DNA of 35,474 nucleotides, taken from assembly GCA_012522875.1 (NCBI GenBank), contig JAAYJP010000262.1, positions 1 through 35,474 of the forward strand. The letters run 5' to 3'. Shown here in pieces: positions 5,889 to 22,543 of this stretch (the stretch's first letter is position 1; every line of letters starts with the position of its first letter). Both the position numbers and the translations under genes were made by a program. The notes beneath the pieces were generated by a model. That model searched no databases. It worked only from the letters and a program-made list of their open reading frames with translations, and had not been told where the DNA came from. This DNA comes from Clostridiales bacterium (GTDB taxonomy: Bacteria > Bacillota > Clostridia > Christensenellales > Aristaeellaceae).

Positions 5889-7682
5889 TCAAAAGCCGTT
5901 TTCACGGTTGATCTGGTCGATTTCAGCACGCCTGATGGGTGGATTGCAGCTCTTGCAGGGCGTGAGTTTCTCATAGCCCGCGTCATCCAACTCACCATAG
6001 GTCATCTCGCCCTTCAGAGGCAGATATCGGTCCTTGATGCTTCGGCAGTTTTGATCAGTATGGTAATACTGTCCGCGGTCCGGATTGTAATATAGGGCAA
6101 GGGAAGGGTCAGGATACTCATAGAAACGCCCCGGGAAATCATCCCATATCAATACCTTGGTATTCACTTTGATATTGTTCCACAGCCAGCTCATATTGAT
6201 GCCATCCTCATTGTTAAGCCGCTGCACGCGGATGCATCCATGGCTTGCTTTTTTGCCCAGTTGGGCTTCCTGAGAAGAGTAATCCCAATATCCGGTAGAC
6301 TGGTTTTCAATATATGGCACCTCATGTATCAGGGCTCCGCCATTTATACGCATGGCCATGCGGCAGACCAGGTTACCGGCATTAAACTGGCCAACGCGGC
6401 TGACCATCAGGAACTCGCCTGAGGGGGTTTCATTCCATGGCTGCTGCCTGGTGGGAATGCCTGTGGAGATAAGAAGCTCGGTAAAGAGTTTGCCTTCCTT
6501 GAACACATACAGCCTTTGCTTCAGTTTATCTATCAGGATACCGTAATCATCCCTGGGAGTGATGGTCTTCAGGTTTTTGGTCTCTATATAGCCGCGGATC
6601 AGGTCATCGGTGTCCCCGTAACCCCTGCGCGTGCGATTGTCAGGGCCATAGGACGAGTTGTACGCCTCCACAAGGGACCAGCCGTCATCCGTTTGCTCAA
6701 TGATATGAACGCCCTGGGCCTCATAGGTGATTTCACCCAGGATGTTCTCCCGGTCCATGCTGATGTCTTTTGCGGCGCGGAGCTTGTATGTTTCGCGCTG
6801 ATCGCCGCCCACCACCACGGTGATTGGCTGGAGCATTACCTCCCAGATGGCTTCCTCGTTCCACTCCCCAATGGGCATCTTCCAGTAACTGGAGCCCTTT
6901 TCTTCCTCCGTCACCACTTCCTTCGTGGGCAGCGTGTACTTCATCTCATTGATGGCCTCAGAAAGATTTGCAATTGGTGTTGTATAGCCCTCTGACACCT
7001 TAACATCCGATGCAGGGGTATGCTTTGGAACTGGTCCCACGGTAAGCGTCACATGGTGCTGATTGGCGGCAAAGCCGCTTTCGTCAAGGAACAGGACAGA
7101 CAGGGTGTGCTGGCCTTCCGGTGCGGCTACACCATCGATATATCCATCCCAACTCACCGTCGTTTCTCCTGCCGGAACCGGAGCGTAGAAGATATTTGCT
7201 GCCTGATCGGCAACGTGAAAAACTACCATAAGCGTTCCTGGCATATTTAGCTGCGCGCTAAGTGCCCAGTTTTGCCCTGGTGTGATGTGTGCATCAACGA
7301 TCCTGAGTTGACTGATGCGCGGACTTTCAGGCCCGATGGATACAGCGGTTTCTGCTGTATTGCCGTCCATCAGAAGCACCAACCGATAGTCCCCTTGCGG
7401 AAAAAGCTGTTGGGTCCGTCCAAGGCCGTTCCAGACTAGATGGTTCTCCCCCGTATTAACCGAAATTTCACTTCTGATTTCATTTAGATTACCAGTATCA
7501 TCACGCAGCAAAAGCTGTGCCAAACCATCGTGGCTTGATGTAAAACTGAGACGCTCAGTCCGGCCCGGCCTTATGAAAGAAGGAACGGCCGTAAAATGAA
7601 GGTGTGTTATTTCGGCCAGAACAGCCGTATGGCTAAGGAACAGAAAAACTGCTCCGAAAAAGGCGAGAATGCGTTCTTTCAT
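5889..7682 (-). CDS. Secreted multidomain L,D-transpeptidase (YkuD catalytic domain)
   Basis: 597 aa. The signal peptide is MKERILAFFGAVFLFLSHTAVLAEI. Two Ig-like repeats resemble the FlgD-Ig type (..HLVWNGLGRTQQLFPQGDYRLVLL.. and ..TVSWDGYIDGVAAPEGQHTLSVLF..). The YkuD active site is SHGCIRV. The C-terminus carries a YHTDQNC...PCKSC module. GGAGGTTACG precedes the ATG. Confidence 0.88.
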   Translation of the reverse strand: MKERILAFFGAVFLFLSHTAVLAEITHLHFTAVPSFIRPGRTERLSFTSSHDGLAQLLLRDDTGNLNEIRSEISVNTGENHLVWNGLGRTQQLFPQGDYRLVLLMDGNTAETAVSIGPESPRISQLRIVDAHITPGQNWALSAQLNMPGTLMVVFHVADQAANIFYAPVPAGETTVSWDGYIDGVAAPEGQHTLSVLFLDESGFAANQHHVTLTVGPVPKHTPASDVKVSEGYTTPIANLSEAINEMKYTLPTKEVVTEEEKGSSYWKMPIGEWNEEAIWEVMLQPITVVVGGDQRETYKLRAAKDISMDRENILGEITYEAQGVHIIEQTDDGWSLVEAYNSSYGPDNRTRRGYGDTDDLIRGYIETKNLKTITPRDDYGILIDKLKQRLYVFKEGKLFTELLISTGIPTRQQPWNETPSGEFLMVSRVGQFNAGNLVCRMAMRINGGALIHEVPYIENQSTGYWDYSSQEAQLGKKASHGCIRVQRLNNEDGINMSWLWNNIKVNTKVLIWDDFPGRFYEYPDPSLALYYNPDRGQYYHTDQNCRSIKDRYLPLKGEMTYGELDDAGYEKLTPCKSCNPPIRRAEIDQINRENGF

Positions 7683-7753: not shown

Positions 7754-7782
7754 TTGTAAACATTTTCGTCACAGGTTATAAT
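7754..7782 (+). promoter_or_regulatory. Candidate promoter for the nuclease-SNF2 gene
   Basis: TTGTAA (7754-7759), a 17-nt spacer, then consensus TATAAT (7777-7782). GGAGG at 7801-7805 and the ATG at 7810 follow. Confidence 0.5.
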
Positions 7783-7809
7783 CATTGCGTAAGCAAATCG
7801 GGAGGACAC

Positions 7810-9981
7810 ATGCAAAAAAATTTGGCTCAGGTAATCAGCGCCGTTCAATCGATCCGGGCACCTTTTTCCGTCCTGGAAACTGATTTGCACGCCCAGGTTC
7901 AGGCCGCACTTGAGGGCGCACAAATTCCATATACCCATGAAGCGCAAGTGGCACCGAGATGCCGCATTGACTTTCTGGCAAATGGTATCGGCATAGAAAT
8001 TAAGCGCGGTAGGCCGCGTGTCCATGATCTGCTGAATCAGGCAACCCGCTATCTTGCATCCCCACGGCTTGATGCGCTGCTTATCCTCAGTGAGCGTGAA
8101 GTGAATATACCGGGGTCTGTTCTCGAAAAGCCTTGCATAGCAATGAGTTTTGGCAAACTGTGGGGGCCAGCAGTGCCGTTGGAACAGGAGGCGGCAAACC
8201 CAAACCCGGTCTGTAATTCGCAATACAAACCTGGTTCTGTTTTTGTTGCCGCTGCGCCACTGCCAGGCAATACAAGCCCGGCTTACCTCGAGCCTGTGCG
8301 GGCGGGCGAAAGGGTCTACGGCACTTTATCCTACCAGGCACGAAGCAAGCATTGGGTCATCAGCGGCGAACCCTATGTAACTGAACTTGCCAAACGATTA
8401 TTTCCCGGAGCTGACAGCGGAAGGCGCGGCGTTGCAAAATTTGCAGCGCACCGGCGGCTTGTGGGTGAACTCAACTGGTTTATGCAGCGTTATCCGCTTG
8501 CAATTTTGCCCAGGGACCAGGAGCGCTGGAATACATCCTTGCAGGAGGCCCGGGATTACAGGACAAGGCAAGACGCTTTCACTCGAAACACGCCGGAGTA
8601 TGAAAACGGGACAGGGTGGTTTACAGGCCATCTGCGGCCTTTTCAAGCCTGTGGCGCGGTCTGGCTTGCGCAAATGCGCCGTGCCTTGCTGGCCGATGAG
8701 ATGGGCTTAGGGAAAACGGTCCAGGCGCTGGCTGCGTTGTCCTCCACCGGAGGGCTTCCCGCTGTTATTGTGGTTCCACCGCATTTGATACGCAACTGGC
8801 AGAGCGAAATCCTGCGATTCCTGAGTGTAGACAGCCGGGCACCCAGGATTCACATTCTAAAAGGATTGAGCCCTTATCCATTGCCTGAGGCCGATATTTA
8901 CCTGGTGCATTATCTCTTGCTTCGTGGATGGAAAAACGCATTGCCAGAACTACCAGTCAAAACTGTCATTTTTGACGAAATCCAGGAACTGCGGCATAGG
9001 GGGACGGAAAAGTACAGCGCTGCCAGCCTGCTGTCAAACGCCTGCGAATGTGTGTATGGCCTTTCAGGCACTCCAATATATAACCAAGGCGGCGAGATAT
9101 GGAATGTGATCAACATCCTGGACTATCATTTTCTGGGTGATTGGGAATCCTTCTCCAGAGAATGGTGCTATGGCTATGGCAATGCGGTGGTTATACACCC
9201 TGAATGGCTGGGGGATTACCTCAGGCGGGAGGGAGTGATGCTCCGGCGCAACAAGAAAGAAGTGCTCCCTGAGTTGCCTGATAAACGGAGGCTGGTTCAG
9301 GAGATTGATGCTGATAATGCGATCTTTCAGAAGTTGATGGCGCCTGTGCTGGACAAATTAAGGCATCTGTCACAAGCGGGAGAGTTGTCACCTTCACAGC
9401 GCGCTTTGCTGGAAGGCCAGGTTTCCCAGGGTGAGAGACAAGCTACCGGTCTGGCAAAGGCCCCGTATGTGGCTCACTTCATACGCGCGATGATCGAATC
9501 GGGTGAAAAGGTGCTTTTGTTCGCTCATCACCACGCGGTTATGGATCTTTACAAAAAAGAACTCAAACACCTTTCCCCCGTCTTTATTACTGGCAGGGAG
9601 ACCGGAGCGCAGAAAGACAAAAGCGTCGACCGCTTTATGCAAGGGCGTACTGACCTCTGCTGTATTTCCCTTCGGGCTGCCTCCGGCCTTAACCTTCAGC
9701 GCGCCACATGTGTGGTGTTTGGAGAACTGGACTGGTCTCCAGCTATTCACAGCCAAGCAGAAGACCGGGCACACCGCATCGGGCAGAAGGATTCCCTGCT
9801 ATGCTACTATCTGACGAGTCCCGGTGGTTCTGATAGCTTAATTCAGGACGTTCTGGGGCTGAAAGTAAGCCAGTTCCTGGGTTTGATGGGGGCACAGCCG
9901 CCGCGGGCCCAAGAAGAGGCTGCTGCCGCCAATTATGCACGGCAGCATGTTCAGGATATGATGGTGCGGTGGTTTCCCTAA
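7810..9981 (+). CDS. SNF2-family DNA-dependent ATPase/translocase with an N-terminal PD-(D/E)xK nuclease-like domain and an uncharacterised middle domain
   Basis: 723 aa from the ATG at 7810 (GGAGG 4 nt upstream). SNF2 motifs are LADEMGLGKT (I), FDEIQ (II, DExQ), LSGTPI (III) and QAEDRAHRIGQ (VI). The head carries E(TDLH)...RIDFLANGIGIEIK...Q..YL, which is a D-x8-E-x-K nuclease core. The ORF-track start at 7669 overlaps the divergent gene and both promoters and is rejected. Confidence 0.85.
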   Translation: MQKNLAQVISAVQSIRAPFSVLETDLHAQVQAALEGAQIPYTHEAQVAPRCRIDFLANGIGIEIKRGRPRVHDLLNQATRYLASPRLDALLILSEREVNIPGSVLEKPCIAMSFGKLWGPAVPLEQEAANPNPVCNSQYKPGSVFVAAAPLPGNTSPAYLEPVRAGERVYGTLSYQARSKHWVISGEPYVTELAKRLFPGADSGRRGVAKFAAHRRLVGELNWFMQRYPLAILPRDQERWNTSLQEARDYRTRQDAFTRNTPEYENGTGWFTGHLRPFQACGAVWLAQMRRALLADEMGLGKTVQALAALSSTGGLPAVIVVPPHLIRNWQSEILRFLSVDSRAPRIHILKGLSPYPLPEADIYLVHYLLLRGWKNALPELPVKTVIFDEIQELRHRGTEKYSAASLLSNACECVYGLSGTPIYNQGGEIWNVINILDYHFLGDWESFSREWCYGYGNAVVIHPEWLGDYLRREGVMLRRNKKEVLPELPDKRRLVQEIDADNAIFQKLMAPVLDKLRHLSQAGELSPSQRALLEGQVSQGERQATGLAKAPYVAHFIRAMIESGEKVLLFAHHHAVMDLYKKELKHLSPVFITGRETGAQKDKSVDRFMQGRTDLCCISLRAASGLNLQRATCVVFGELDWSPAIHSQAEDRAHRIGQKDSLLCYYLTSPGGSDSLIQDVLGLKVSQFLGLMGAQPPRAQEEAAAANYARQHVQDMMVRWFP

Positions 9982-9985
9982 GCGA

Positions 9986-10014
9986 TTGACTTTTATAAGG
10001 GCATACCGTAAGAT
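9986..10014 (+). promoter_or_regulatory. Sigma-A-type promoter for ruvCAB-queA-psuKG
   Basis: TTGACT (9986-9991), a 17-nt spacer, then TAAGAT (10009-10014). It starts 5 nt after the SNF2 stop codon. Confidence 0.5.
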
Positions 10015-10035: not shown

Positions 10036-10530
10036 ATGCGGATTATGGGCATCGATCCCGGGCTGGCAACAATGGGTTGGGGTGTAATTGACTGTTCACT
10101 GGACGCACCCGAATTTGTATCCTCAGGAATCATTCAGACTTTGCCAGCGGAATCACTGCCCCAACGTCTTGCCAGGATTGATTCCGGTATGGACGAGCTG
10201 ATTATGCTGTACAAGCCCGGTGCCATTGTGTTTGAACAGCTCTTTTTCGCCAAGAATGTTACCACTGCCTTTAATGTTGGCGCAGCCCGGGGCGTCGCCA
10301 TCGCGCGCTGTGCGCGCTTCACGGACGCTTTGTACGAGTACACTCCAATGCAAATCAAACAGGCTGTGGTGGGTTATGGCAAGGCGGATAAGCAGCAGGT
10401 CCAACGCATGATCCAGCTGTTGCTGAAACTTCCGGAAATCATCCAACCGGATGACGCTGCAGATGCCGTTGCCGCAGCACTCACCCATTTCCAATCCGGC
10501 AGGTTCGGCAGCCTGCATATCATGAAATGA
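10036..10530 (+). CDS. ruvC: Crossover junction endodeoxyribonuclease RuvC
   Basis: 164 aa. MRIMGIDPGLATMGWGVI is the RNase H-fold first-Asp motif, and ...QPDDAADAVAAALTH is the C-terminal acidic motif. GGGAGGGG lies upstream. Confidence 0.93.
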   Translation: MRIMGIDPGLATMGWGVIDCSLDAPEFVSSGIIQTLPAESLPQRLARIDSGMDELIMLYKPGAIVFEQLFFAKNVTTAFNVGAARGVAIARCARFTDALYEYTPMQIKQAVVGYGKADKQQVQRMIQLLLKLPEIIQPDDAADAVAAALTHFQSGRFGSLHIMK

Positions 10531-10539
10531 GAGGTTGCC

Positions 10540-11151
10540 ATGTACGCCTTTATTGAGGGTCAAGTTGCGGAAAAGCAAGCCAATGAGCTTGTTCTGAGTG
10601 TCCAGGGTGTGGGTTATCAGATCTTGTGCACCCAGGCTTCGCTTGCTATTGTGCCGCCCAAAGGCGAGTATGTTCGCATCTATACTTGGCTTAGCGTCCG
10701 TGAAGACGCGCTTGAGTTGTTTGGCTTTTCATCCAGGGAAGAGCGGGCCATGTTTTTGCACCTCAACGCTGTTTCAGGCATCGGGCCCCGCACAGCGCTC
10801 AATATCCTCAACAGCATGCCGTTGAAGGATTTAACGTTTGCGATTTTAACAGGGGATATTCTGACTTTATCCCGAGCCCCCGGGATCGGCAAAAAAACAG
10901 CACAACGCATCACGCTGGAATTGAAAGACCGCCTGAGCAAGGACAGCGGCTCCCTGTCGGCCGATCTTCCAGGCGTGGGTTTTTCACCTTCTGCCACTGA
11001 CGCTGTTGGTGAAGCGGTTATGGCCCTCCAGGGTTTGGGTTACACCCAGTCGGAAGCCGCAATGGCTGTATCCAAAGCGCATCAGCAAGGCGCAGGTGAA
11101 AAATCGGATGACCTGGTACGCCAAGCGTTACGCGGGATGATGAAAGGGTAA
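10540..11151 (+). CDS. ruvA: Holliday junction branch migration complex subunit RuvA
   Basis: 203 aa starting MYAFIEGQV. There are two HhH motifs (VSGIGPRTALNIL and APGIGKKTAQRI) and a C-terminal domain III. Confidence 0.93.
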   Translation: MYAFIEGQVAEKQANELVLSVQGVGYQILCTQASLAIVPPKGEYVRIYTWLSVREDALELFGFSSREERAMFLHLNAVSGIGPRTALNILNSMPLKDLTFAILTGDILTLSRAPGIGKKTAQRITLELKDRLSKDSGSLSADLPGVGFSPSATDAVGEAVMALQGLGYTQSEAAMAVSKAHQQGAGEKSDDLVRQALRGMMKG

Positions 11152-11154
11152 GCC

Positions 11155-12210
11155 ATGCAGGATGAGCGCTTGATGATGACAGGCCAGCGGGACGAGGACC
11201 GGGATGTTGATGTATCGCTTCGTCCCCGCGTGCTTCGTGAATATGTGGGCCAGGACAAGGTTAAGGACAATCTGAATGTCTATATCAAAGCTGCCCTCAA
11301 ACGCCGGGATGCCCTGGATCATATCCTTCTATACGGCCCACCCGGCCTTGGCAAGACTACCCTTGCTTGTATTGTAGCAGCGGAAATGGGCCAGAACATC
11401 CGTATCACCTCCGGTCCCGCCATTGACCGACCTGGTGATCTGGCTTCGATCCTCACCAACCTAAACGCCGGAGATATCCTGTTTATCGATGAAATCCATC
11501 GGCTTTCCCGCGCGGTAGAAGAAGTGCTGTACCCTGCGATGGAGGACTTCGCCCTGGATATCATGATTGGCAAAGGACCCACTGCCCGTTCCATGCGTCT
11601 GGAGCTTCCCCGCTTTACTTTGGTGGGCGCCACCACCCGGGCAGGCCAGTTGTCCGCCCCGCTCCGGGATCGTTTTGGAATGACATTTCGTCTGGAACTC
11701 TATGCACCGGAGGAACTGGCGCATATCCTCCGCCGTTCTGCTTCTATTCTGGATATGCCGGCGGATGATGAGGGCATCATCGAAATCGCAAGGCGAAGCA
11801 GGGGCACCCCTCGCATCGCAAACCGCATGCTCAAGCGCGTGCGGGATTATGCGCAGGTCAAGGCGGATGGGAGGATTACCCGTCAGGTGGCAAACGAAGG
11901 ATTGAACTTACTTGATGTAGATGAACTGGGCCTTGACCGGGTGGATCGCACGGTGCTGCTCACCATGATAGACAAGTTCTCAGGCGGGCCCGTGGGACTT
12001 GACACCCTGGCTGCTTCCACGGGGGAAGACGCGCTGACCATTGAGGATGTCTATGAGCCCTTTCTTTTGCAGTTGGGCTTTATTCACAGGACCCCCCGGG
12101 GGCGTATGGCCACCCTGGCTGCCTATCAACACCTGAACCGAGCTTTTCCCGGTGATGATGGCAAACCCATCCCAAGCCAGCAGGTGGCATTTTTTGATGA
12201 AAACCCATGA
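11155..12210 (+). CDS. ruvB: Holliday junction branch migration DNA helicase RuvB
   Basis: 351 aa with AAA+ motifs [13 protein letters not shown] and LFIDEIHRL, plus sensor and arginine-finger regions. Confidence 0.95.
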
Positions 12211-16492: not shown

Positions 16493-18743
16493 ACTTCCCG
16501 TATCCCCCAAGGCGATGAATTCACCTTTTCGAAAAAGGGCGGCTGATTACCTTGGTTCCCAAGCCTTCATACGCCTGCTCGCCATCCTGGCGGGTGGGTT
16601 TTTGTGCCTGCTGATTTTCATGGTCTCAATCAGCCCGAAGCGTTACAACCTGGTGGTGGGAATGGTGCCCGACCAGACGATAGCCGCTCACAAGGATGTG
16701 ATCGATGAGGTGACAACCAGGGCTAGCCGTGATGCCGCCGCTGCCGCGGTGGCGCCTACCTATCACTATCAGGAGGGAATCACAGAAGCGGTCATCGCGA
16801 ATCTTGAAGCCGCCCATGCGGAAATGGTGGCAGTCCGGCAATACGCCCAGACGTTGCCTGAGTTTTCGAGCCGGCGGACCTACAGCCAGGATGAGTTGGC
16901 CCTGGCGCACGATATGATCAACCTGGTTGCGTTTCAGGATTTCCAGTTGATTACGCTGATGAACGCTTCCAATGAGCAGTTTGACGAGATGTACCTTGCC
17001 CTGGTTCCCGCCGTGCGCAACACCATGCAGGGCAATGTCATTCAGGGGCAGGAATCCAGCGCTATCAACGGCATCATGCAACTGGTTGGCTACAAAACCA
17101 ACGTAAGCTTGCTGCAAAATGTGGTGCTCCCGGTATTGCGTGAGATTATTGAACCTAACATGGTGGTTGATGCGGAGGCTACAGAATTGGCACGCCAGGA
17201 CGCCTGGAATGCAGTTGAGCCTGTCGTTTTCAAACAGGGACAGAACATTGTGGTGCGCGGCGAGGGGCGGGTCCGGGAAAACCAGATCGCAATGCTCAAC
17301 AGCCTGGGCCTGCTGGATGACAATACCGTCGACTATGCCATGTACCTGGGAGCGTTTGGTATGGTATCTTTCGTCCTGGCCCTGGCTTTTGCTGCGCTGA
17401 AAGTGCTGAAGCCCTCTGTTGCCGGGGAGACCAGGTCCATCATTCTCATTAACCTGGTTATTCTGATCTCCCTGGCACTATCCCTTCTGACCAAGGAAAT
17501 CCAGTTGATCTATCTGGCGCCCTTGGCACTCCCTTTCATGCTGTTAACAGGCACTCTTGGCCCCGTTCCGGCAATTATCGCCGGAACCGCATCCACGGCA
17601 CTGGGGGCTGTCATGATTACCGGTACCGGCAGCGTTATCAGCGACTGGGTAAACCTATTGTCTATTGGTGTTTTCTCAGGCGTCCTGGCGTCACTCCTTT
17701 TAAAGAGCAACTATCAGCGCTCCTACGTGCTGTTGGTAGGGATATTGGTAGGCCTGGCAAACTTCCTTTTGCTGTTTGTATCAGGGCTTCTCACCAGCAT
17801 TAACCTGCAGAGCGCAATGAACAAGGGATTGTGGAGCCTGGTAGGGGCGGCTGTAAGTACGGTATTATGCCTGGCCATCCAGCCTGCGCTGGAATCTGCT
17901 TTTAACCTTCCAACACCTACACGCCTGCTTGACCTGACCAATCCCAACCATCCCCTGCTGAGAAGGCTGCTGCTGGAGGCGCCTGGTACCTACCATCACA
18001 GCATCATTATCGCCAACTTGGCAGAGGCCAGCGCCGAAGCGATCGGGGCCAACCCCCTTCTGGCCCGGGCGGGCGCCTATTTCCATGATATCGGGAAGCT
18101 GAAGCGCCCTCTGTATTTCAAGGAAAACCAGATTGGAACCGGCAATATACACGACAACACAGATCCTCAGGTTTCCGCCGCCATCATCACATCTCATGTC
18201 AGGGAAGGGATTGCCATGGCCCGTCATTACCGACTTCCGCAGGAGATTCAGCAAATTATTGCCGAACACCACGGCGACTCGGTGGTGGCGTTCTTTTATC
18301 ATAAGGCGGTAAAGGAGAGCGCCAACGGTCAACTGAATGACGAGGAGTTCAGATATGCAGGTGTGCCCCCAATGACTGCCGAGGGCGCATTGGTAATGTT
18401 GTGTGATACCATTGAAGCCGCTATCCGTACTTTGAACAGCCCCAGCCAGGAAGAGATTGTCACTTTCATCGACAGCCTCACCCAGAAGAAAATCCAGAGT
18501 GGCCAACTGATAAACGCGCCGCTTACCCTCAAAGACCTTCAGATAATCAGCAGTACCTGCGCCACGGTGTTGAACGGTGTATTCCATGAGCGCATCGAGT
18601 ATCCCGCTGCGCCTGACAAACTGGCTCCCCGGGAAAAGCTCATGGCCCAGCTGCAGCAATTGCGCAAGTCCCCCGCTCCTCCAGCCAAATCGACCGTTGC
18701 CCCATCGCATGAAGAACCTGCCCGGGATAGCGGGAAAGATTAA
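16485..18743 (+). CDS. pgpH: 7TM-HD membrane phosphohydrolase (YqfF/PgpH family, cyclic-di-AMP phosphodiesterase class)
   Basis: 752 aa with an extracellular N-terminal domain and a multi-TM block (about aa 290-470). The HD domain reads HHSIIIANLAEA...AYFHDIGK...AEHHG. The position between phoH and ybeY is conserved. The start overlaps the phoH stop. Confidence 0.88.
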   Translation: MFELPVSPKAMNSPFRKRAADYLGSQAFIRLLAILAGGFLCLLIFMVSISPKRYNLVVGMVPDQTIAAHKDVIDEVTTRASRDAAAAAVAPTYHYQEGITEAVIANLEAAHAEMVAVRQYAQTLPEFSSRRTYSQDELALAHDMINLVAFQDFQLITLMNASNEQFDEMYLALVPAVRNTMQGNVIQGQESSAINGIMQLVGYKTNVSLLQNVVLPVLREIIEPNMVVDAEATELARQDAWNAVEPVVFKQGQNIVVRGEGRVRENQIAMLNSLGLLDDNTVDYAMYLGAFGMVSFVLALAFAALKVLKPSVAGETRSIILINLVILISLALSLLTKEIQLIYLAPLALPFMLLTGTLGPVPAIIAGTASTALGAVMITGTGSVISDWVNLLSIGVFSGVLASLLLKSNYQRSYVLLVGILVGLANFLLLFVSGLLTSINLQSAMNKGLWSLVGAAVSTVLCLAIQPALESAFNLPTPTRLLDLTNPNHPLLRRLLLEAPGTYHHSIIIANLAEASAEAIGANPLLARAGAYFHDIGKLKRPLYFKENQIGTGNIHDNTDPQVSAAIITSHVREGIAMARHYRLPQEIQQIIAEHHGDSVVAFFYHKAVKESANGQLNDEEFRYAGVPPMTAEGALVMLCDTIEAAIRTLNSPSQEEIVTFIDSLTQKKIQSGQLINAPLTLKDLQIISSTCATVLNGVFHERIEYPAAPDKLAPREKLMAQLQQLRKSPAPPAKSTVAPSHEEPARDSGKD

Positions 18744-18747
18744 GAGA

Positions 18748-19635
18748 ATGCGGGTTATTCTATCTGAAGACAGCCAAACCTCTGCCGTGCCGCTTTCTTT
18801 TTTTGAGCGTATTGCACAAGCCGCCGTCCTTCTGGAGGGCCTGGATAAACCCATGTTTCTGTCACTGACACTCACCGATGATGCCGGCATCAGGGCCGTC
18901 AACAGGCAGTGGCGTTACCAGGATACTGCGACAGATGTAATCAGTTTTCCAGCTATCAATTTTTCGCCCCGGGATACTGCCAGTCTAAGGCAGGCGCTTC
19001 CCGCGGATGCCTGGGACAGCGATGAAAGCGCCCATTTCCTTGGGGATATTGTCATTTCTCTGCCCAGGGCCAAGTCACAGGCCGAGGAATACGGCCATGG
19101 CGTGGAAAGGGAACTGTCTTATCTTTTTGTCCATGGGGTGATGCACCTGATGGGCTATGATCATCAAAACCCGGAGGATAAAATAAAAATGCGCGATATG
19201 GAAGAAAAGGCCCTCGCCGGGGCAGCAAACATGGATAACGATGACCGGGCTCTGGTGCAAGCTGCCTGGAAGGCCCGGGAGTATGCCTACACGCCCTATT
19301 CAAACTACAAGGTAGGATCGGCGCTCAGAGCGAAGAGCGGGAAGATATATACGGGTTGTAATATTGAAAATGCTGCCTTTGGCCTCACAAACTGTGCGGA
19401 GCGTACCGCTCTGTTTAAGGCCATCAGCGTTGGCGATATTGAGTTTGATGCCATCGCCATCTCGGCGGATGCTACACCCCCCTGGCCATGCGGTGCCTGC
19501 AGGCAGGCACTTAGCGAGTTCGCGCCCAACATTCGGGTGCTGATCAGCTGGAGTGATGGGAAGGAGAACGCCGAGGCCACACTGGACCAGTTGCTCCCCC
19601 ACAGCTTCTTGAATTTCGTGGAGGATGGGAAATGA
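18748..19635 (+). CDS. In-frame fusion of rRNA maturation endoribonuclease YbeY (N-terminal) and cytidine deaminase (C-terminal)
   Basis: 295 aa. The YbeY zinc motif is HGVMHLMGYDH. After a linker of roughly 25 aa come Cdd motifs YTPYSNYKVGSAL, CAERTALF and PCGACRQ. No stop codon separates the two halves, and no SD precedes the internal ATG. Confidence 0.85.
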   Translation: MRVILSEDSQTSAVPLSFFERIAQAAVLLEGLDKPMFLSLTLTDDAGIRAVNRQWRYQDTATDVISFPAINFSPRDTASLRQALPADAWDSDESAHFLGDIVISLPRAKSQAEEYGHGVERELSYLFVHGVMHLMGYDHQNPEDKIKMRDMEEKALAGAANMDNDDRALVQAAWKAREYAYTPYSNYKVGSALRAKSGKIYTGCNIENAAFGLTNCAERTALFKAISVGDIEFDAIAISADATPPWPCGACRQALSEFAPNIRVLISWSDGKENAEATLDQLLPHSFLNFVEDGK

Positions 19636-21634: not shown

Positions 21635-22543
21635 CTATCCTGGAAAACGCTGCATCAGGCTGCCGGCCAGATCAATCTGCTCACCCAGGAGCGCGGCGAT
21701 TTTTTCATCACTTGCGGCGTTCCCCTCAATATCCATATCTTTAGCACGCCAACCGGATGCCAGCACATTGCCCACAGAAGCCTTCAGACAGCCGGCTTCT
21801 TTTTTTAGCCCCAAGCTTTCATCAAGCATGGCAACCGTGGCGTCGAGGGCATCAAATAGCCTGGGAGTGAAACCCGGAACACTGCCAGCCAGGTGGACTA
21901 GCCTGCTTTCATCCTGATAAATGCTGTGGGAAAGGCCGGCTCCGCTTAAGCCCCGGTAGAGCCCCAGCAAAAGGTCAGCAGAAGCCGTGTCGGCCAGAAA
22001 AATGTGCTCGCGCTGTGGAAACTGAAGCGGCTTGGCGACTGCCGCAGCCAACGGCAGGGCTTCAGGCGCTGACAGCGCGTAGGGGCTTGCTGTCTTGCCG
22101 ACTGCTTCCTCCCAGAGCCTTGCCCTGTCGCCAGATACCACAGCCCACACCATAGCCTCCCTGGCGCCAGCAACTCCAAGCACTTTCCGCGCAGCGTTCA
22201 CTGCTGCGTCAAGGCCTGGCCTAAAGGGCGAAACGCATGAAAGCGTCGGGAAATCCGGAACCCGCAGAAGAGAAAAATCCTTTAGCCCTTCAGGCAATTC
22301 CAGCGTCGTCGTCCTGATATGAGCATCAAAAACCTTGAACAGGGAAGCTTCTGACAGCACCGCCAGGATGGCTTGTGCCTCCTCGGCCGCAAGAGAAACT
22401 GCCTCTGGCCCGTCCAACTGCACGTCTTTCATGACAAAGCTGTGGCCAAAAGCGATGGCAATATCGCTGATAGTCTGCTGACACATTCGCAAAAGAGCCT
22501 TGCCCATCAAACTGTCGGACACCATCAGAATTTTGGCGCGCAT
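21635..22543 (-). CDS. Hypothetical protein with a degenerate isocitrate/isopropylmalate dehydrogenase-like sequence pattern
   Basis: 302 aa. It is collinear by eye with IPMDH landmarks, but most catalytic positions are substituted (see findings). ATG with GGGAG about 9 nt upstream, 5 nt after the capA-like stop. Confidence 0.6.
   Translation of the reverse strand: MRAKILMVSDSLMGKALLRMCQQTISDIAIAFGHSFVMKDVQLDGPEAVSLAAEEAQAILAVLSEASLFKVFDAHIRTTTLELPEGLKDFSLLRVPDFPTLSCVSPFRPGLDAAVNAARKVLGVAGAREAMVWAVVSGDRARLWEEAVGKTASPYALSAPEALPLAAAVAKPLQFPQREHIFLADTASADLLLGLYRGLSGAGLSHSIYQDESRLVHLAGSVPGFTPRLFDALDATVAMLDESLGLKKEAGCLKASVGNVLASGWRAKDMDIEGNAASDEKIAALLGEQIDLAGSLMQRFPG

What the first reader, a model, noticed from the sequence alone, without database searches (positions are those of the whole stretch)
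7810..9981. Single polypeptide joining a PD-(D/E)xK nuclease-like head, an unassigned middle domain and a complete SNF2 ATPase, directly upstream of ruvCAB
Seen in sequence: a 723-aa ORF whose C-terminal 400 or so residues carry all the SNF2 landmarks (LADEMGLGKT, DEIQ, LSGTP, QAEDRAHRIGQ). About 310 residues that are not part of an SNF2 core precede them. The first 110 or so have the restriction-endonuclease-fold signature, and a low-complexity linker (AANPNPVCNSQYKPGSVFVAAAPLPGNTSPAY) and a second globular region follow. Established: bacterial SNF2 proteins are poorly characterised apart from RapA. Nuclease plus SF2/SNF2 combinations recur in anti-phage systems (DISARM DrmD, Zorya ZorD, the single-protein Hna). 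They also recur in eukaryotic fork-processing enzymes (ZRANB3 is SNF2 plus HNH; FAN1 carries VRR-NUC). Inference: this is either a single-gene defence or DNA-surveillance protein, or a bacterial fork/branched-DNA remodeller-nuclease. The second idea is encouraged by its position 5 nt upstream of the ruvC promoter and on the same strand as ruvCAB, in a window that also holds recG. No integrase, methyltransferase or other defence partner is visible nearby. That argues against a classical island or a multi-gene system and makes the core-genome placement unusual.
Basis: partly seen in the sequence, partly recalled or inferred. Interest (0 to 1): 0.75.

Follow-up and report, generated by a model that had tools for sequence, protein, structure and literature searches.

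The report
Nuclease–SNF2 motor fused beside ruvCAB
This gene encodes a DNA-cutting-type domain, an unknown domain and an SNF2 DNA motor in one protein. It is the fused form of an unstudied two-gene module found in many Clostridia, phages and plasmids, and here it sits in the core genome just upstream of the Holliday-junction genes ruvCAB, so it is probably a DNA-repair or replication enzyme rather than a phage-defence gene.

Summary
ORF 7810-9981 (723 aa) has three parts: a PD-(D/E)xK-fold head (aa 1-121) with conserved E23, D54, E63-x-K65; a variable linker; and a confidently folded but unassignable middle domain (aa ~157-260) joined to a complete SNF2 ATPase. The main new result is that head and middle+SNF2 form a near-obligate pair. 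In 80 species-level genomes the head is fused in 54, a separate upstream gene in 22, and absent in 1. All seven other head-family proteins whose neighbourhood I checked are also followed by such an SNF2 gene. The pair also occurs in phages (Arthrobacter KBurrousTX gp87 "Cas4 family exonuclease" plus gp88 "DNA helicase"; Pseudomonas LKA5; Ruegeria 45A6) and on large plasmids.

Fusion arose once. ruvCAB adjacency also arose once and was then inherited vertically. The protein diverges in step with RuvA/B/C and RecG, at the RuvA/RuvC rate. Other clades place the module next to polA or between dnaB and priA. No defence model matches the head or the middle domain, and the window is all housekeeping.

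Best reading: a motor-coupled nuclease acting on branched replication or recombination DNA, derived from a mobile-element replication module. Function is inferred, not shown. No membership in ZorD, DrmD, DpdE, RapA, SMARCAL1, VRR-NUC or Cas4.

The parts
7754..7782 (+). Promoter-like site TTGTAA-17-TATAAT in the 127-nt divergent intergenic region shared with the YkuD gene
   Evidence: 10 of 12 matches; sequence. This is a consensus match only.
7800..7805 (+). Ribosome-binding site GGGAGG, 4 nt before the ATG
7810..9981 (+). Whole ORF, 723 aa: head, linker, middle domain, SNF2 ATPase
   Evidence: More than 120 full-length homologues at 57-99% identity.
7810..8172 (+). Head, aa 1-121: PD-(D/E)xK-fold domain. 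Member of the phrog_5928 / standalone ~120-aa protein family
   Evidence: AF2 pLDDT 89.8 and topology. The Foldseek top lists are rich in PD-(D/E)xK nucleases, but with weak scores. phrog_5928 E 2.9e-14. 3075 representative clusters match the profile.
7876..8004 (+). Putative active-site residues: E23 (7876-7878), H43-E44 (7936-7941), D54 (7969-7971), E63-I-K65 (7996-8004)
   Evidence: At least 95% conserved in 120 homologues and invariant in alignment A2. D54 lies on strand 2 and E63/K65 on strand 3 of the model.
8155..8169 (+). KLWGP: the conserved LWG motif that ends the head. In unfused relatives the protein stops 3-5 residues after LWG
   Evidence: All 22 split forms end ...LWG(V/I/L)(A/S)L(P)(L)*.
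8173..8277 (+). Low-complexity linker, aa 122-156. Not conserved and variable in length
8278..8589 (+). Middle domain, aa 157-260: PAYL motif, beta-hairpin, helix (KRLFPG), strand, helix (NWFMQRYPL), long helix. It always precedes the SNF2 core in this family, phage versions included
   Evidence: AF2 pLDDT 90.8. Invariant K/R/W/G positions. No Pfam, NCBIfam, PADLOC or PDB match. Conserved in the Ruegeria phage protein.
8653..9309 (+). SNF2 N-terminal lobe, aa 282-500, with motif I LADEMGLGKT (8689-8718), motif II DEIQ (8974-8985) and motif III LSGTP (9061-9075)
   Evidence: Pfam PF00176, E 1.6e-22.
9481..9783 (+). SNF2 C-terminal lobe (Helicase_C), aa 558-658. Motif VI QAEDRAHRIGQ lies at 9754-9786, running 3 nt beyond the Pfam match
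   Evidence: Pfam PF00271, E 1.9e-12. The best solved relative is the Sulfolobus SNF2 core 1z63, E 6e-31.
9986..10014 (+). Promoter-like TTGACT-17-TAAGAT in the 54-nt gap before ruvC. No terminator-like hairpin lies in the gap
10036..12210 (+). ruvC (10036-10530), ruvA (10540-11151), ruvB (11155-12210): a downstream, possibly co-transcribed Holliday-junction operon. This is context, not part of the protein
   Evidence: Pfam RuvC, RuvA_N/C and RuvB_N/C. The adjacency is conserved in 38 of 69 assessable loci.

Best explanation
The gene encodes a motor-coupled nuclease for DNA repair, replication or recombination. The SNF2 core is a complete, presumably active ATP-driven double-strand DNA translocase. 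The family-specific, Arg/Lys/Trp-rich middle domain that always precedes it most likely positions the motor on its DNA substrate or docks the nuclease. The head is an active-looking PD-(D/E)xK nuclease.

I infer that the enzyme binds branched DNA (stalled or reversed forks, Holliday junctions or D-loops), uses ATP to move the branch point, and cuts the structure. That would be a motor-plus-nuclease job of the kind done by RuvAB plus RuvC, by T4 UvsW plus endonuclease VII, or by eukaryotic ZRANB3.

The module began as two overlapping genes in the replication/recombination regions of phages and plasmids and in Clostridia chromosomes. In one Clostridia lineage (Christensenellales-like) the two genes fused. 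The fusion then settled upstream of ruvCAB, where it has since been inherited as a core gene.

Shown: the architecture, the conservation, the obligate pairing, the contexts and the vertical inheritance. Inferred: nuclease activity, the substrate, and coupling to the motor.
For: 1. Intact catalytic equipment. All SNF2 motifs are present. The head has the PD-(D/E)xK topology, with E23, D54 and E63-x-K65 at least 95% conserved across 120 homologues.

2. Obligate partnership.
- In 80 GTDB species loci the head is fused in 54, a separate upstream gene in 22, not assessable in 3, and absent in 1.
- All seven other head-family proteins whose neighbourhood I checked (four standalone, one next to a headless SNF2 gene, two fused to other N-terminal domains) are directly followed by a middle+SNF2 or SNF2 gene, most with overlapping stop and start codons.
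- The same pair is present in 3 of 3 phages and 2 of 2 plasmids inspected.

3. Housekeeping behaviour.
- A nine-gene synteny, recG-fakA-asp23-ykuD-[gene]-ruvC-ruvA-ruvB-queA, recurs among the 38 loci that have ruvC directly downstream.
- Over 33 of these loci, identity to the window protein tracks that of RuvB, RuvA, RuvC and RecG (Spearman 0.79-0.90).
- Mean identity is 64.6%, equal to RuvA/RuvC (65%) and above RecG (53%).

4. Replication or repair neighbours in three separate clades: ruvCAB (38 loci), divergent polA (7 loci), and dnaB ... priA (L083).

5. There is no terminator between the stop codon and ruvC. The gap has a median of 56 nt across loci.

6. In phages the pair sits among replication/recombination genes: an exonuclease in 45A6, and a RusA-like resolvase and SSB in KBurrousTX.

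7. Published analyses propose that phage Snf2 helicases stand in for UvsW in recombination-dependent replication (PMC7824862). They also find SNF2-like plus RecB-like genes next to phage polA (PMC6302109).

8. No PADLOC model matches the head or the middle domain. All defence-family hits are core-only and far below the cut-offs.
Against: - No activity has been measured for any member of the family.
- The structural matches of the head are weak: best PDB E 0.0096, best viral E 5e-4. The fold class is supported, but no specific nuclease type is, resolvase included.
- The middle domain has no detectable relative, so its role in substrate recognition is a guess.
- ruvCAB adjacency arose once, so it is a single data point.
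- Many split-form loci have unrelated housekeeping neighbours.
- These genomes already carry RuvABC and RecG, so a redundant branch-processing enzyme needs a reason to exist.
- No LexA-type box lies near the gene.
- In mobile elements the pair often lies near DNA methylases. That could point instead to DNA-conflict functions.
Confidence: 0.5

Rival explanations
1. It is a DNA-conflict enzyme: an ATP-dependent, restriction-like nuclease-translocase used for defence, exclusion of foreign DNA, or (in mobile elements) degradation of host or competitor DNA. The motor would reel in or scan DNA and the head would cut it, as in Type I/III/IV restriction enzymes or Zorya ZorD.
For: - The nuclease plus SF2/SNF2 logic is typical of defence proteins. 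The SNF2 core scores best against PADLOC ZorD and DpdE models, E 3e-43 to 1e-40.
- The module is carried by phages and large plasmids.
- In four of five mobile-element contexts a DNA methylase lies within a few genes.
- On plasmid pF068 it lies among small hypothetical genes, a PcfJ-domain gene and a DNA modification methylase gene.
Against: - The defence hits cover the SNF2 core only and are far below curated cut-offs: ZorD 63 bits against 1500, DrmD 37 against 950, DpdE 55 against 500.
- The head and the middle domain match no PADLOC model.
- No partner genes, methylase or integrase occur in the window.
- The chromosomal form sits in a deeply conserved synteny and evolves at the rate of RuvA/RuvC. 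Defence genes are typically patchy and fast-moving (my own knowledge).
- Neighbours of the 43 loci without ruvC are housekeeping genes, with no restriction, integrase or defence family among the 25 most frequent.
Confidence: 0.2
2. It is a DNA-end processing machine. The head would be a RecB/Cas4-like exonuclease and the SNF2 motor would feed it DNA, so that the pair resects double-strand ends or degrades reversed-fork arms (a functional analogue of AddAB/RecBCD or of DNA2-type fork processing) rather than cutting junctions.
For: - Curators of Arthrobacter phage KBurrousTX annotate the head homologue gp87 as 'Cas4 family exonuclease'. It matches the head profile at E 7e-16.
- Virioplankton polA neighbourhoods pair SNF2-like with RecB-like genes (PMC6302109).
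- The PD-(D/E)xK fold serves exonucleases as well as endonucleases.
Against: - No Pfam match to the Cas4/RecB-type families at E up to 1. The only marginal hits are to PDDEXK_3/GxxExxY, E 0.015.
- The head has no four-cysteine cluster; only C51 is conserved.
- SNF2 motors translocate on duplex DNA without unwinding it (title and abstract of PMC1616948, listed). This suits branch migration better than resection.
Confidence: 0.15
3. The head is a non-catalytic DNA- or protein-binding module. The protein would be chiefly a remodeller that strips proteins (RNA polymerase, a stalled replisome, recombinase filaments) from DNA, like RapA or Rad54, without cutting.
For: - The characterised prokaryotic SNF2 proteins (RapA, Sulfolobus Rad54) are remodellers without nuclease activity (PMC2175355 and PMC2677860, listed).
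- The closest solved core is Sulfolobus SSO1653.
- PD-(D/E)xK folds are sometimes inactivated and reused for binding (my own knowledge).
Against: - The full acidic/lysine set (E23, D54, E63, K65) plus Q77 is at least 95% conserved in fused forms. In the split-form and phage sequences inspected, E23, D54, E63 and K65 are all kept. Inactivated domains normally lose these residues.
- RapA membership fails: 22 bits against a cut-off of 576.
Confidence: 0.1

Closest known systems
Phage and plasmid two-gene module: a small PD-(D/E)xK protein (phrog_5928) plus an SNF2-type 'DNA helicase'. Examples: Arthrobacter phage KBurrousTX gp87/gp88, Pseudomonas phage LKA5 01.4/01.3, Ruegeria phage 45A6, P. aeruginosa plasmid pF068, Thermobacillus composti pTHECO01
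   Same: This is true homology over all three parts. The head profile matches at E 2.5e-25 to 5.7e-13. Middle domain plus SNF2 core are 34% identical to the 45A6 helicase, E 1e-80. The gene order is the same, with overlapping stop and start codons.
   Different: In mobile elements the two parts are separate genes and the head lacks the C-terminal LWG ending. Here they are fused through a linker and fixed in a core chromosomal locus next to ruvCAB. No member has been characterised experimentally; the annotations are 'hypothetical', 'DNA helicase' or 'Cas4 family exonuclease'.
[quoted passage not shown]
   Same: One polypeptide combines an SNF2 motor, an accessory domain and an endonuclease-type domain, and the proposed logic is motor-positioned cleavage of branched DNA.
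   Different: The nuclease fold differs (HNH against PD-(D/E)xK) and lies C-terminal rather than N-terminal. ZRANB3 has PCNA- and ubiquitin-binding modules and a HARP-like substrate-recognition domain, for which no counterpart was detected here. There is no homology outside the SNF2 core.
SMARCAL1 / HARP annealing helicase
   Same: An SNF2 core preceded by a small accessory domain. JGI automatic annotation calls several homologues 'SMARCAL1-like'.
   Different: There is no Pfam HARP match at E up to 1. SMARCAL1 is absent from the top 50 Foldseek hits of the middle domain, where the best E is 0.097. SMARCAL1 has no nuclease.
Zorya ZorD (SNF2 helicase plus Mrr-like nuclease), DISARM DrmD, Dpd DpdE
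   Same: An SNF2 core. ZorD also carries a PD-(D/E)xK-type nuclease. These are the best PADLOC scores.
   Different: The matches are to the SNF2 core only and far below the family cut-offs. The head and middle domain have no PADLOC match. No ZorABC, Drm or Dpd partners are present, and the gene is a core-genome, vertically inherited one.
Sulfolobus solfataricus SSO1653 / SsoRad54 SNF2 core (PDB 1z63)
   Same: It is the closest solved structure by sequence, E 6e-31 across the entire core, aa 273-693. It is a duplex-DNA translocase.
   Different: It has no nuclease head and no homologous N-terminal domain.
Phage SNF2 helicase plus VRR-NUC nuclease pairs; T4 UvsW plus endonuclease VII; archaeal Hef (SF2 helicase plus XPF-type nuclease)
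   Same: All pair a motor with a PD-(D/E)xK or other structure-specific nuclease in replication or recombination modules. Standalone viral and bacterial VRR-NUC proteins are Holliday-junction resolvases, and Hef processes forks (my own knowledge). Phage Snf2 proteins have been proposed as UvsW substitutes (PMC7824862).
   Different: There is no Pfam VRR_NUC match at E up to 1. UvsW and Hef belong to other helicase families. These are analogues, not relatives.

Membership tests
SNF2 family ATPase (Pfam PF00176 + PF00271) | Both RecA-like lobes match above the Pfam gathering scores | tested here: met
   SNF2-rel_dom 80.4 bits (cut-off 24.9) and Helicase_C 47.8 bits (cut-off 23.5).
SNF2 family ATPase (Pfam PF00176 + PF00271) | Motifs I (GKT), II (DExx), III and VI (arginine fingers) are intact | tested here: met
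   LADEMGLGKT, DEIQ, LSGTP and QAEDRAHRIGQ are present and conserved in homologues (for motif I).
PD-(D/E)xK nuclease superfamily | Core alpha-beta-beta-beta-alpha-beta fold | tested here: met
   AF2 model pLDDT 89.8: H23-36, E42-48, E51-57, E60-65, H71-82, E89-94. The Foldseek top hits are mostly PD-(D/E)xK nucleases, but with weak E-values of 5e-4 to 0.1.
PD-(D/E)xK nuclease superfamily | Catalytic D on strand 2 and (D/E)-x-K on strand 3 | tested here: met
   D54 and E63-I-K65 sit on those strands and are at least 95% conserved.
PD-(D/E)xK nuclease superfamily | Significant sequence match to a curated member family | tested here: inconclusive
   Only sub-threshold PDDEXK_3/GxxExxY hits for two standalone homologues, E 0.015 and 0.12. 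No PDB sequence relative.
PD-(D/E)xK nuclease superfamily | Metal-dependent phosphodiester cleavage | not testable with these tools
   Needs biochemistry.
phrog_5928 (phage protein family of unknown function) | Profile match over most of the 124-position model | tested here: met
   E 2.9e-14, aa 3-110 against profile positions 6-115. Standalone homologues score E 1e-10 to 4e-19.
Zorya ZorD | Full-length match above the NCBIfam cut-off, with ZorA/B/C neighbours | tested here: not met
   63.3 bits against a cut-off of 1500, core only. No Zor genes in the window. The head has no PADLOC hit.
DISARM DrmD / Dpd DpdE | Full-length match above the cut-off and the system's partner genes | tested here: not met
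   DrmD 37.5 bits against 950 and DpdE 55.2 against 500. No partner genes in the window.
Hna (single-protein helicase-nuclease defence) | Match to an Hna model | tested here: inconclusive
   No Hna model is among the 25 PADLOC families shown, out of 39 hits. I do not know whether PADLOC 2.0.0 holds an Hna model.
RapA (RNA-polymerase-associated SNF2) | Match above the NCBIfam equivalog cut-off | tested here: not met
   22 bits against 576.
SMARCAL1 / HARP | HARP domain immediately N-terminal to the SNF2 core | tested here: not met
   No Pfam HARP hit at E up to 1. Foldseek on the middle-domain model gives nothing below E 0.097 and no SMARCAL1 in the top 50. The PDB profile search is empty.
VRR-NUC | Pfam PF08774 match | tested here: not met
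   No hit at E up to 1 on the whole protein or on standalone homologues.
Cas4 family exonuclease | RecB-like nuclease domain with a four-cysteine Fe-S cluster | tested here: not met
   Only one conserved cysteine, C51, and no Cas4/PDDEXK_1 Pfam hit. The label exists only as a phage annotation.

The most novel reading that the evidence does not exclude
This family is a previously unrecognised bacterial and phage enzyme for processing forks and junctions. An SNF2 motor drives branch migration or fork reversal. It is physically coupled, by fusion or by an obligate partner protein, to a resolvase-like PD-(D/E)xK nuclease, and it uses a new type of substrate-recognition domain. In Christensenellales-like Clostridia it has been domesticated from mobile-element replication modules into the ruvCAB operon. 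There it would work as a core repair factor alongside RuvABC and RecG, as a bacterial functional counterpart of ZRANB3/SMARCAL1-type remodellers.
Probability: 0.3. Interest if true: 0.8.

Novelty: new variant of a known kind. Interest (0 to 1): 0.55.

Why it matters
Apart from RapA, bacterial SNF2 proteins have almost no assigned functions. Fork-remodelling SNF2 enzymes (SMARCAL1, ZRANB3, HLTF) are regarded as eukaryotic; bacteria are thought to rely on RecG and RuvAB.

This is a large and coherent family. The scan found it in at least 522 species genomes. The head profile matches 3075 sequence clusters. The module also turns up in 45 phage records and 22 plasmid records. An SNF2 motor is tied to a conserved nuclease in nearly every case. 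In one lineage the gene evolves like a core repair gene inside the ruv locus.

If the family acts on branched DNA, it adds a new player to bacterial and phage replication restart and recombination. It also gives two uncharted domains a function, and it offers a simple one- or two-protein model of motor-coupled junction cleavage. If it is instead a conflict system, it would be an unusual case of one fixed in a core operon. Either way, cloning one or two genes and running standard assays would settle the question.

Tried and rejected
1. HARP idea. From the sequence pattern (hairpin, helix, strand, helix) I suspected that the middle domain was a HARP domain, and JGI labels call homologues 'SMARCAL1-like'. 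There was no Pfam HARP hit, no Foldseek match below E 0.097 and no SMARCAL1 in the top 50, and an empty PDB profile search. I dropped the idea as a membership claim.

2. Defence-system membership (ZorD, DpdE, DrmD, BrxH). All hits are to the SNF2 core only and far below the cut-offs. The head and the middle domain scanned alone find nothing in PADLOC.

3. VRR-NUC, Cas4 or RecB identity of the head. Not supported by Pfam, NCBIfam or PDB sequence searches.

4. SOS regulation. No Cheo/LexA-type box lies near the gene. The window has five matches at up to 2 mismatches, against about 11.6 expected by chance.

5. The first homologue search, with aa 1-275, returned only fragments and frameshifted pieces. 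That briefly suggested the fusion was rare. The full-length search corrected this.

6. Split forms as assembly artefacts. Rejected: all 22 head ORFs stop within five residues of the conserved LWG motif, nearly all ending ...LWG(V/I)AL(P)*.

7. Literature. Six full-text searches found no paper on this family.


Full report
**1. The observation**

The ORF at 7810-9981 (+) is real. It encodes 723 aa. The start is an ATG four bases after GGGAGG (7800-7805), and a TTGTAA-17-TATAAT promoter-like site lies at 7754-7782, in the 127-nt region shared with a divergent YkuD-type gene. A database protein 99% identical has the same length (P0063).

Pfam finds SNF2-rel_dom at aa 282-500 (E 1.6e-22) and Helicase_C at aa 558-658 (E 1.9e-12). 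It finds nothing on aa 1-270, even at E up to 1. The closest solved structure by sequence is the Sulfolobus SSO1653 SNF2 core (1z63, E 6e-31 over aa 273-693).

Downstream on the same strand lie ruvC (10036-10530), ruvA, ruvB and queA, all confirmed by Pfam. Upstream on the other strand lie a YkuD-domain protein, Asp23, FakA, RecG, an Rrf2 regulator and a cysteine desulfurase. The rest of the window holds PhoH, a 7TM-HD protein, YbeY, Era, ApbE, formate-THF ligase, TruB, a DHH phosphoesterase, IF-2, NusA and RimP. There is no integrase, methyltransferase or recognisable defence gene.

**2. The head (aa 1-121)**

An AlphaFold2 model built from 12 homologues is confident (mean pLDDT 89.8). Its order of elements is helix 2-13, helix 23-36, strands 42-48, 51-57 and 60-65, helix 71-82, then strands 89-94 and 107-113. 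This is the core of the PD-(D/E)xK fold. D54 lies on the second strand and E63-I-K65 on the third, where the catalytic residues of that fold lie.

In an alignment of 120 full-length homologues at 57-99% identity, the following are at least 95% conserved: R16, E23, L26, H27, H43, E44, R52, D54, G61, E63, K65, Q77, R80, Y81 and L117-W118-G119 (invariant columns).

Foldseek scores are weak. The best PDB hit has E 0.0096 and the best viral hit E 5e-4. Even so, the top lists are dominated by PD-(D/E)xK nucleases: CdiA-CT, BbvCI, EcoT38I, BspD6I, Bax1, SfsA, I-Bth0305I, T7 endonuclease I, and viral 'PD-(D/E)XK nuclease' and 'restriction endonuclease' entries.

By sequence there is no Pfam or NCBIfam family. 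Two standalone relatives give marginal PDDEXK_3/GxxExxY hits, and no PDB chain matches. The head does match phrog_5928, a phage family of unknown function, at E 2.9e-14.

So the fold class and an intact-looking active site are supported. No specific nuclease subtype is.

**3. The middle domain (aa ~157-260)**

A second model (aa 152-290, 35 sequences) is also confident, with pLDDT 90.8. It shows a beta-hairpin, a helix carrying the invariant KRLFPG, a strand, a helix carrying NW(F/L)MQRYPL, and a long helix leading into the SNF2 core. Many invariant positions are Arg, Lys or Trp.

I suspected a HARP domain, as in SMARCAL1. Nothing supports that. There is no Pfam hit. There is no Foldseek hit better than E 0.097 and no SMARCAL1 among the top 50. 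The PDB profile search gives nothing meaningful. There is no NCBIfam or PADLOC hit.

The one addition is that this domain is the hallmark of the family and is conserved even in phage versions.

**4. The main new finding: head and motor are a near-obligate pair, fused or not**

A profile of the head, searched against 1.84 billion representative proteins, found 3075 clusters at E up to 0.001. Most are standalone proteins of about 120-130 aa.

Scanning one genome per GTDB species with the middle-domain alignment gave at least 522 genomes. The best 80 loci all come from Clostridia, labelled Christensenellales, Christensenella, Oscillospiraceae or 'Clostridiales'. In those 80 loci:
- the head is fused in 54;
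- it is a separate ORF directly upstream on the same strand in 22;
- it cannot be assessed in 3, where the contig ends;
- it is absent in 1, L052.

All 22 separate heads stop within five residues of the conserved LWG motif, nearly all ending ...L(N/D)RLWG(V/I)AL(P)*. They are therefore genuine two-gene forms, not frameshifts. In fused forms a non-conserved stretch of 21-103 residues separates the head from the middle domain.

I checked the neighbourhood of seven more head-family proteins from other sources. Every one is followed at once by a middle+SNF2 or SNF2 gene, most with overlapping stop and start codons. They are the 123-aa ORF in L001, then P0190, P0230, P0260 and P0330, and the two multi-domain proteins P0302 (ParB-N + HTH + head) and P0313.

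The same pair is carried by mobile elements:
- Ruegeria phage 45A6. Its helicase is 34% identical over middle domain plus core, E 1e-80.
- Arthrobacter phage KBurrousTX, gp87 'Cas4 family exonuclease' plus gp88 'DNA helicase'.
- Pseudomonas phage LKA5.
- In all, 45 phage records match the middle+SNF2 part at E up to 1e-30.
- 22 plasmid records match, including ~160-205 kb P. aeruginosa plasmids, Burkholderia plasmids and Thermobacillus composti pTHECO01.

The window's gene is thus the fused form of a widespread, unnamed two-component module.

**5. Evolution and context**

A neighbour-joining tree of the middle+SNF2 region puts phage and plasmid sequences outside the Clostridia chromosomal ones. 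Split forms lie in basal clades. All fused forms lie in a single clade. Within that clade, a large group has ruvC downstream and its sister group does not. Fusion therefore happened once. ruvCAB adjacency also arose once, with one apparent loss (L022).

ruvC lies directly downstream in 38 of 69 assessable loci, with a median gap of 56 nt. In the window no terminator-like hairpin separates the stop codon from ruvC, though a promoter-like site (9986-10014) lies in the gap. Co-transcription is therefore possible but not shown.

Over 33 syntenic loci, the identity of this protein to the window's copy tracks that of RuvB, RuvA, RuvC, RecG, FakA and the YkuD protein (Spearman 0.79-0.90). Its mean identity of 64.6% equals RuvA/RuvC (65%) and exceeds RecG (53%). 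That is the behaviour of a vertically inherited core gene under purifying selection.

Outside the Ruv clade, the fused sister clade has a divergent polA as its upstream neighbour in 7 loci. One split-form locus reads L9-dnaB-x-x-head-SNF2-priA. Other loci have assorted housekeeping neighbours. No integrase, restriction or defence family is among the 25 most frequent Pfam families in 105 flanking genes.

**6. How it most likely works**

Shown:
- a complete SNF2 ATPase;
- a conserved PD-(D/E)xK head with its acidic and lysine residues intact;
- a conserved third domain;
- a near-obligate head-motor association;
- replication or repair neighbours in three clades;
- core-gene-like evolution.

Established knowledge: SNF2 enzymes translocate on duplex DNA without unwinding it (PMC1616948, listed). 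Several remodel branched DNA. ZRANB3 combines such a motor with a structure-specific endonuclease (PMC3404384, cited). Phage Snf2 helicases have been proposed to replace UvsW in recombination-dependent replication (PMC7824862). Phage polA genes often neighbour SNF2-like and RecB-like genes (PMC6302109).

Inference: the protein loads on branched replication or recombination intermediates through the middle domain, moves the branch with ATP, and cuts with the head. I give the general 'DNA repair/replication motor-nuclease' reading about 0.5.

The rivals are:
- a restriction-like conflict enzyme, 0.2;
- an end-resection exonuclease machine, 0.15;
- a non-cutting remodeller, 0.1.

The conflict reading is kept alive by the mobile-element distribution and by DNA methylases lying a few genes away in four of the five mobile-element contexts I opened. 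It is weakened by the absence of any defence-model match outside the SNF2 core and by the core-gene behaviour.

**7. Comparison with known families**

The protein is a member of the SNF2 family and, by fold and motifs, of the PD-(D/E)xK superfamily. The head belongs to phrog_5928.

It fails the membership tests for ZorD, DrmD, DpdE, RapA, SMARCAL1/HARP, VRR-NUC and Cas4 (see the table).

In overall logic it most resembles ZRANB3, phage SNF2 plus VRR-NUC pairs, UvsW plus endonuclease VII, and archaeal Hef. All of these are analogues rather than relatives.

**8. Verdict**

The architecture is a new variant of a known kind (a nuclease coupled to an SNF2 motor). It belongs to a large, uncharacterised family whose two accessory domains have no curated model. 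The finding is a good, cheaply testable lead for bacterial and phage DNA-repair biology, but no function has been demonstrated. Interest 0.55.

Noticed in passing
L082 3022-4989; L091 181-2091; L090 908-2497; L092 10515-11027: In four of the five phage or plasmid contexts opened, a DNA methylase gene lies within a few genes of the head+SNF2 pair. It is a C5 methylase in Ruegeria phage 45A6 and Pseudomonas phage LKA5, a 'DNA methylase' in Arthrobacter phage KBurrousTX, and a 'DNA modification methylase' on P. aeruginosa pF068. This may be chance in early or leading regions, or a functional link.
   Followed up: no
window 5889-7682 (-): A 597-aa YkuD-type L,D-transpeptidase is the divergently transcribed upstream neighbour of the SNF2 gene in 34 of 60 assessable species loci, including 5 that lack ruvC downstream. 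The two genes share a 127-nt promoter region in the window. No functional reason is apparent.
   Followed up: partly
window 18577-19635 (+): One 352-aa ORF carries both a YbeY endoribonuclease domain (aa 75-213) and a cytidine deaminase domain (aa 217-316). It is either a real YbeY-Cdd fusion or two genes joined by a sequencing frameshift.
   Followed up: no
L094 2400-3794; L095 5001-6089: The head domain also occurs at the C-terminus of larger proteins: one with ParB-N plus HTH domains (P0302) and one with an unassigned 230-aa N-terminal region (P0313). Both lie in runs of small mobile-element-like genes, and each is again followed by an SNF2 gene.
   Followed up: partly
L052 (whole 16.4-kb locus): This is the only locus with enough upstream sequence in which no head gene was found near the middle+SNF2 gene. 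In the tree it nests among split-form relatives. The head may have been lost, or it may lie elsewhere in the genome.
   Followed up: partly
L083 3032-3853: A 273-aa gene with no Pfam match lies directly upstream of the head+SNF2 pair in the dnaB ... priA locus, and again in L085. It could be a third component in that clade.
   Followed up: no
P0070 (877 aa, contig of 3360 bp): A headless homologue, 68% identical over 57% of the query, is listed with an extra Pfam domain PF21095 and about 150 additional residues. It may be another fusion variant or a chimeric gene call.
   Followed up: no
window 21635-22543 (-): A 302-aa ORF has no Pfam match at E up to 1e-5, in an otherwise fully annotated housekeeping stretch.
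   Followed up: no
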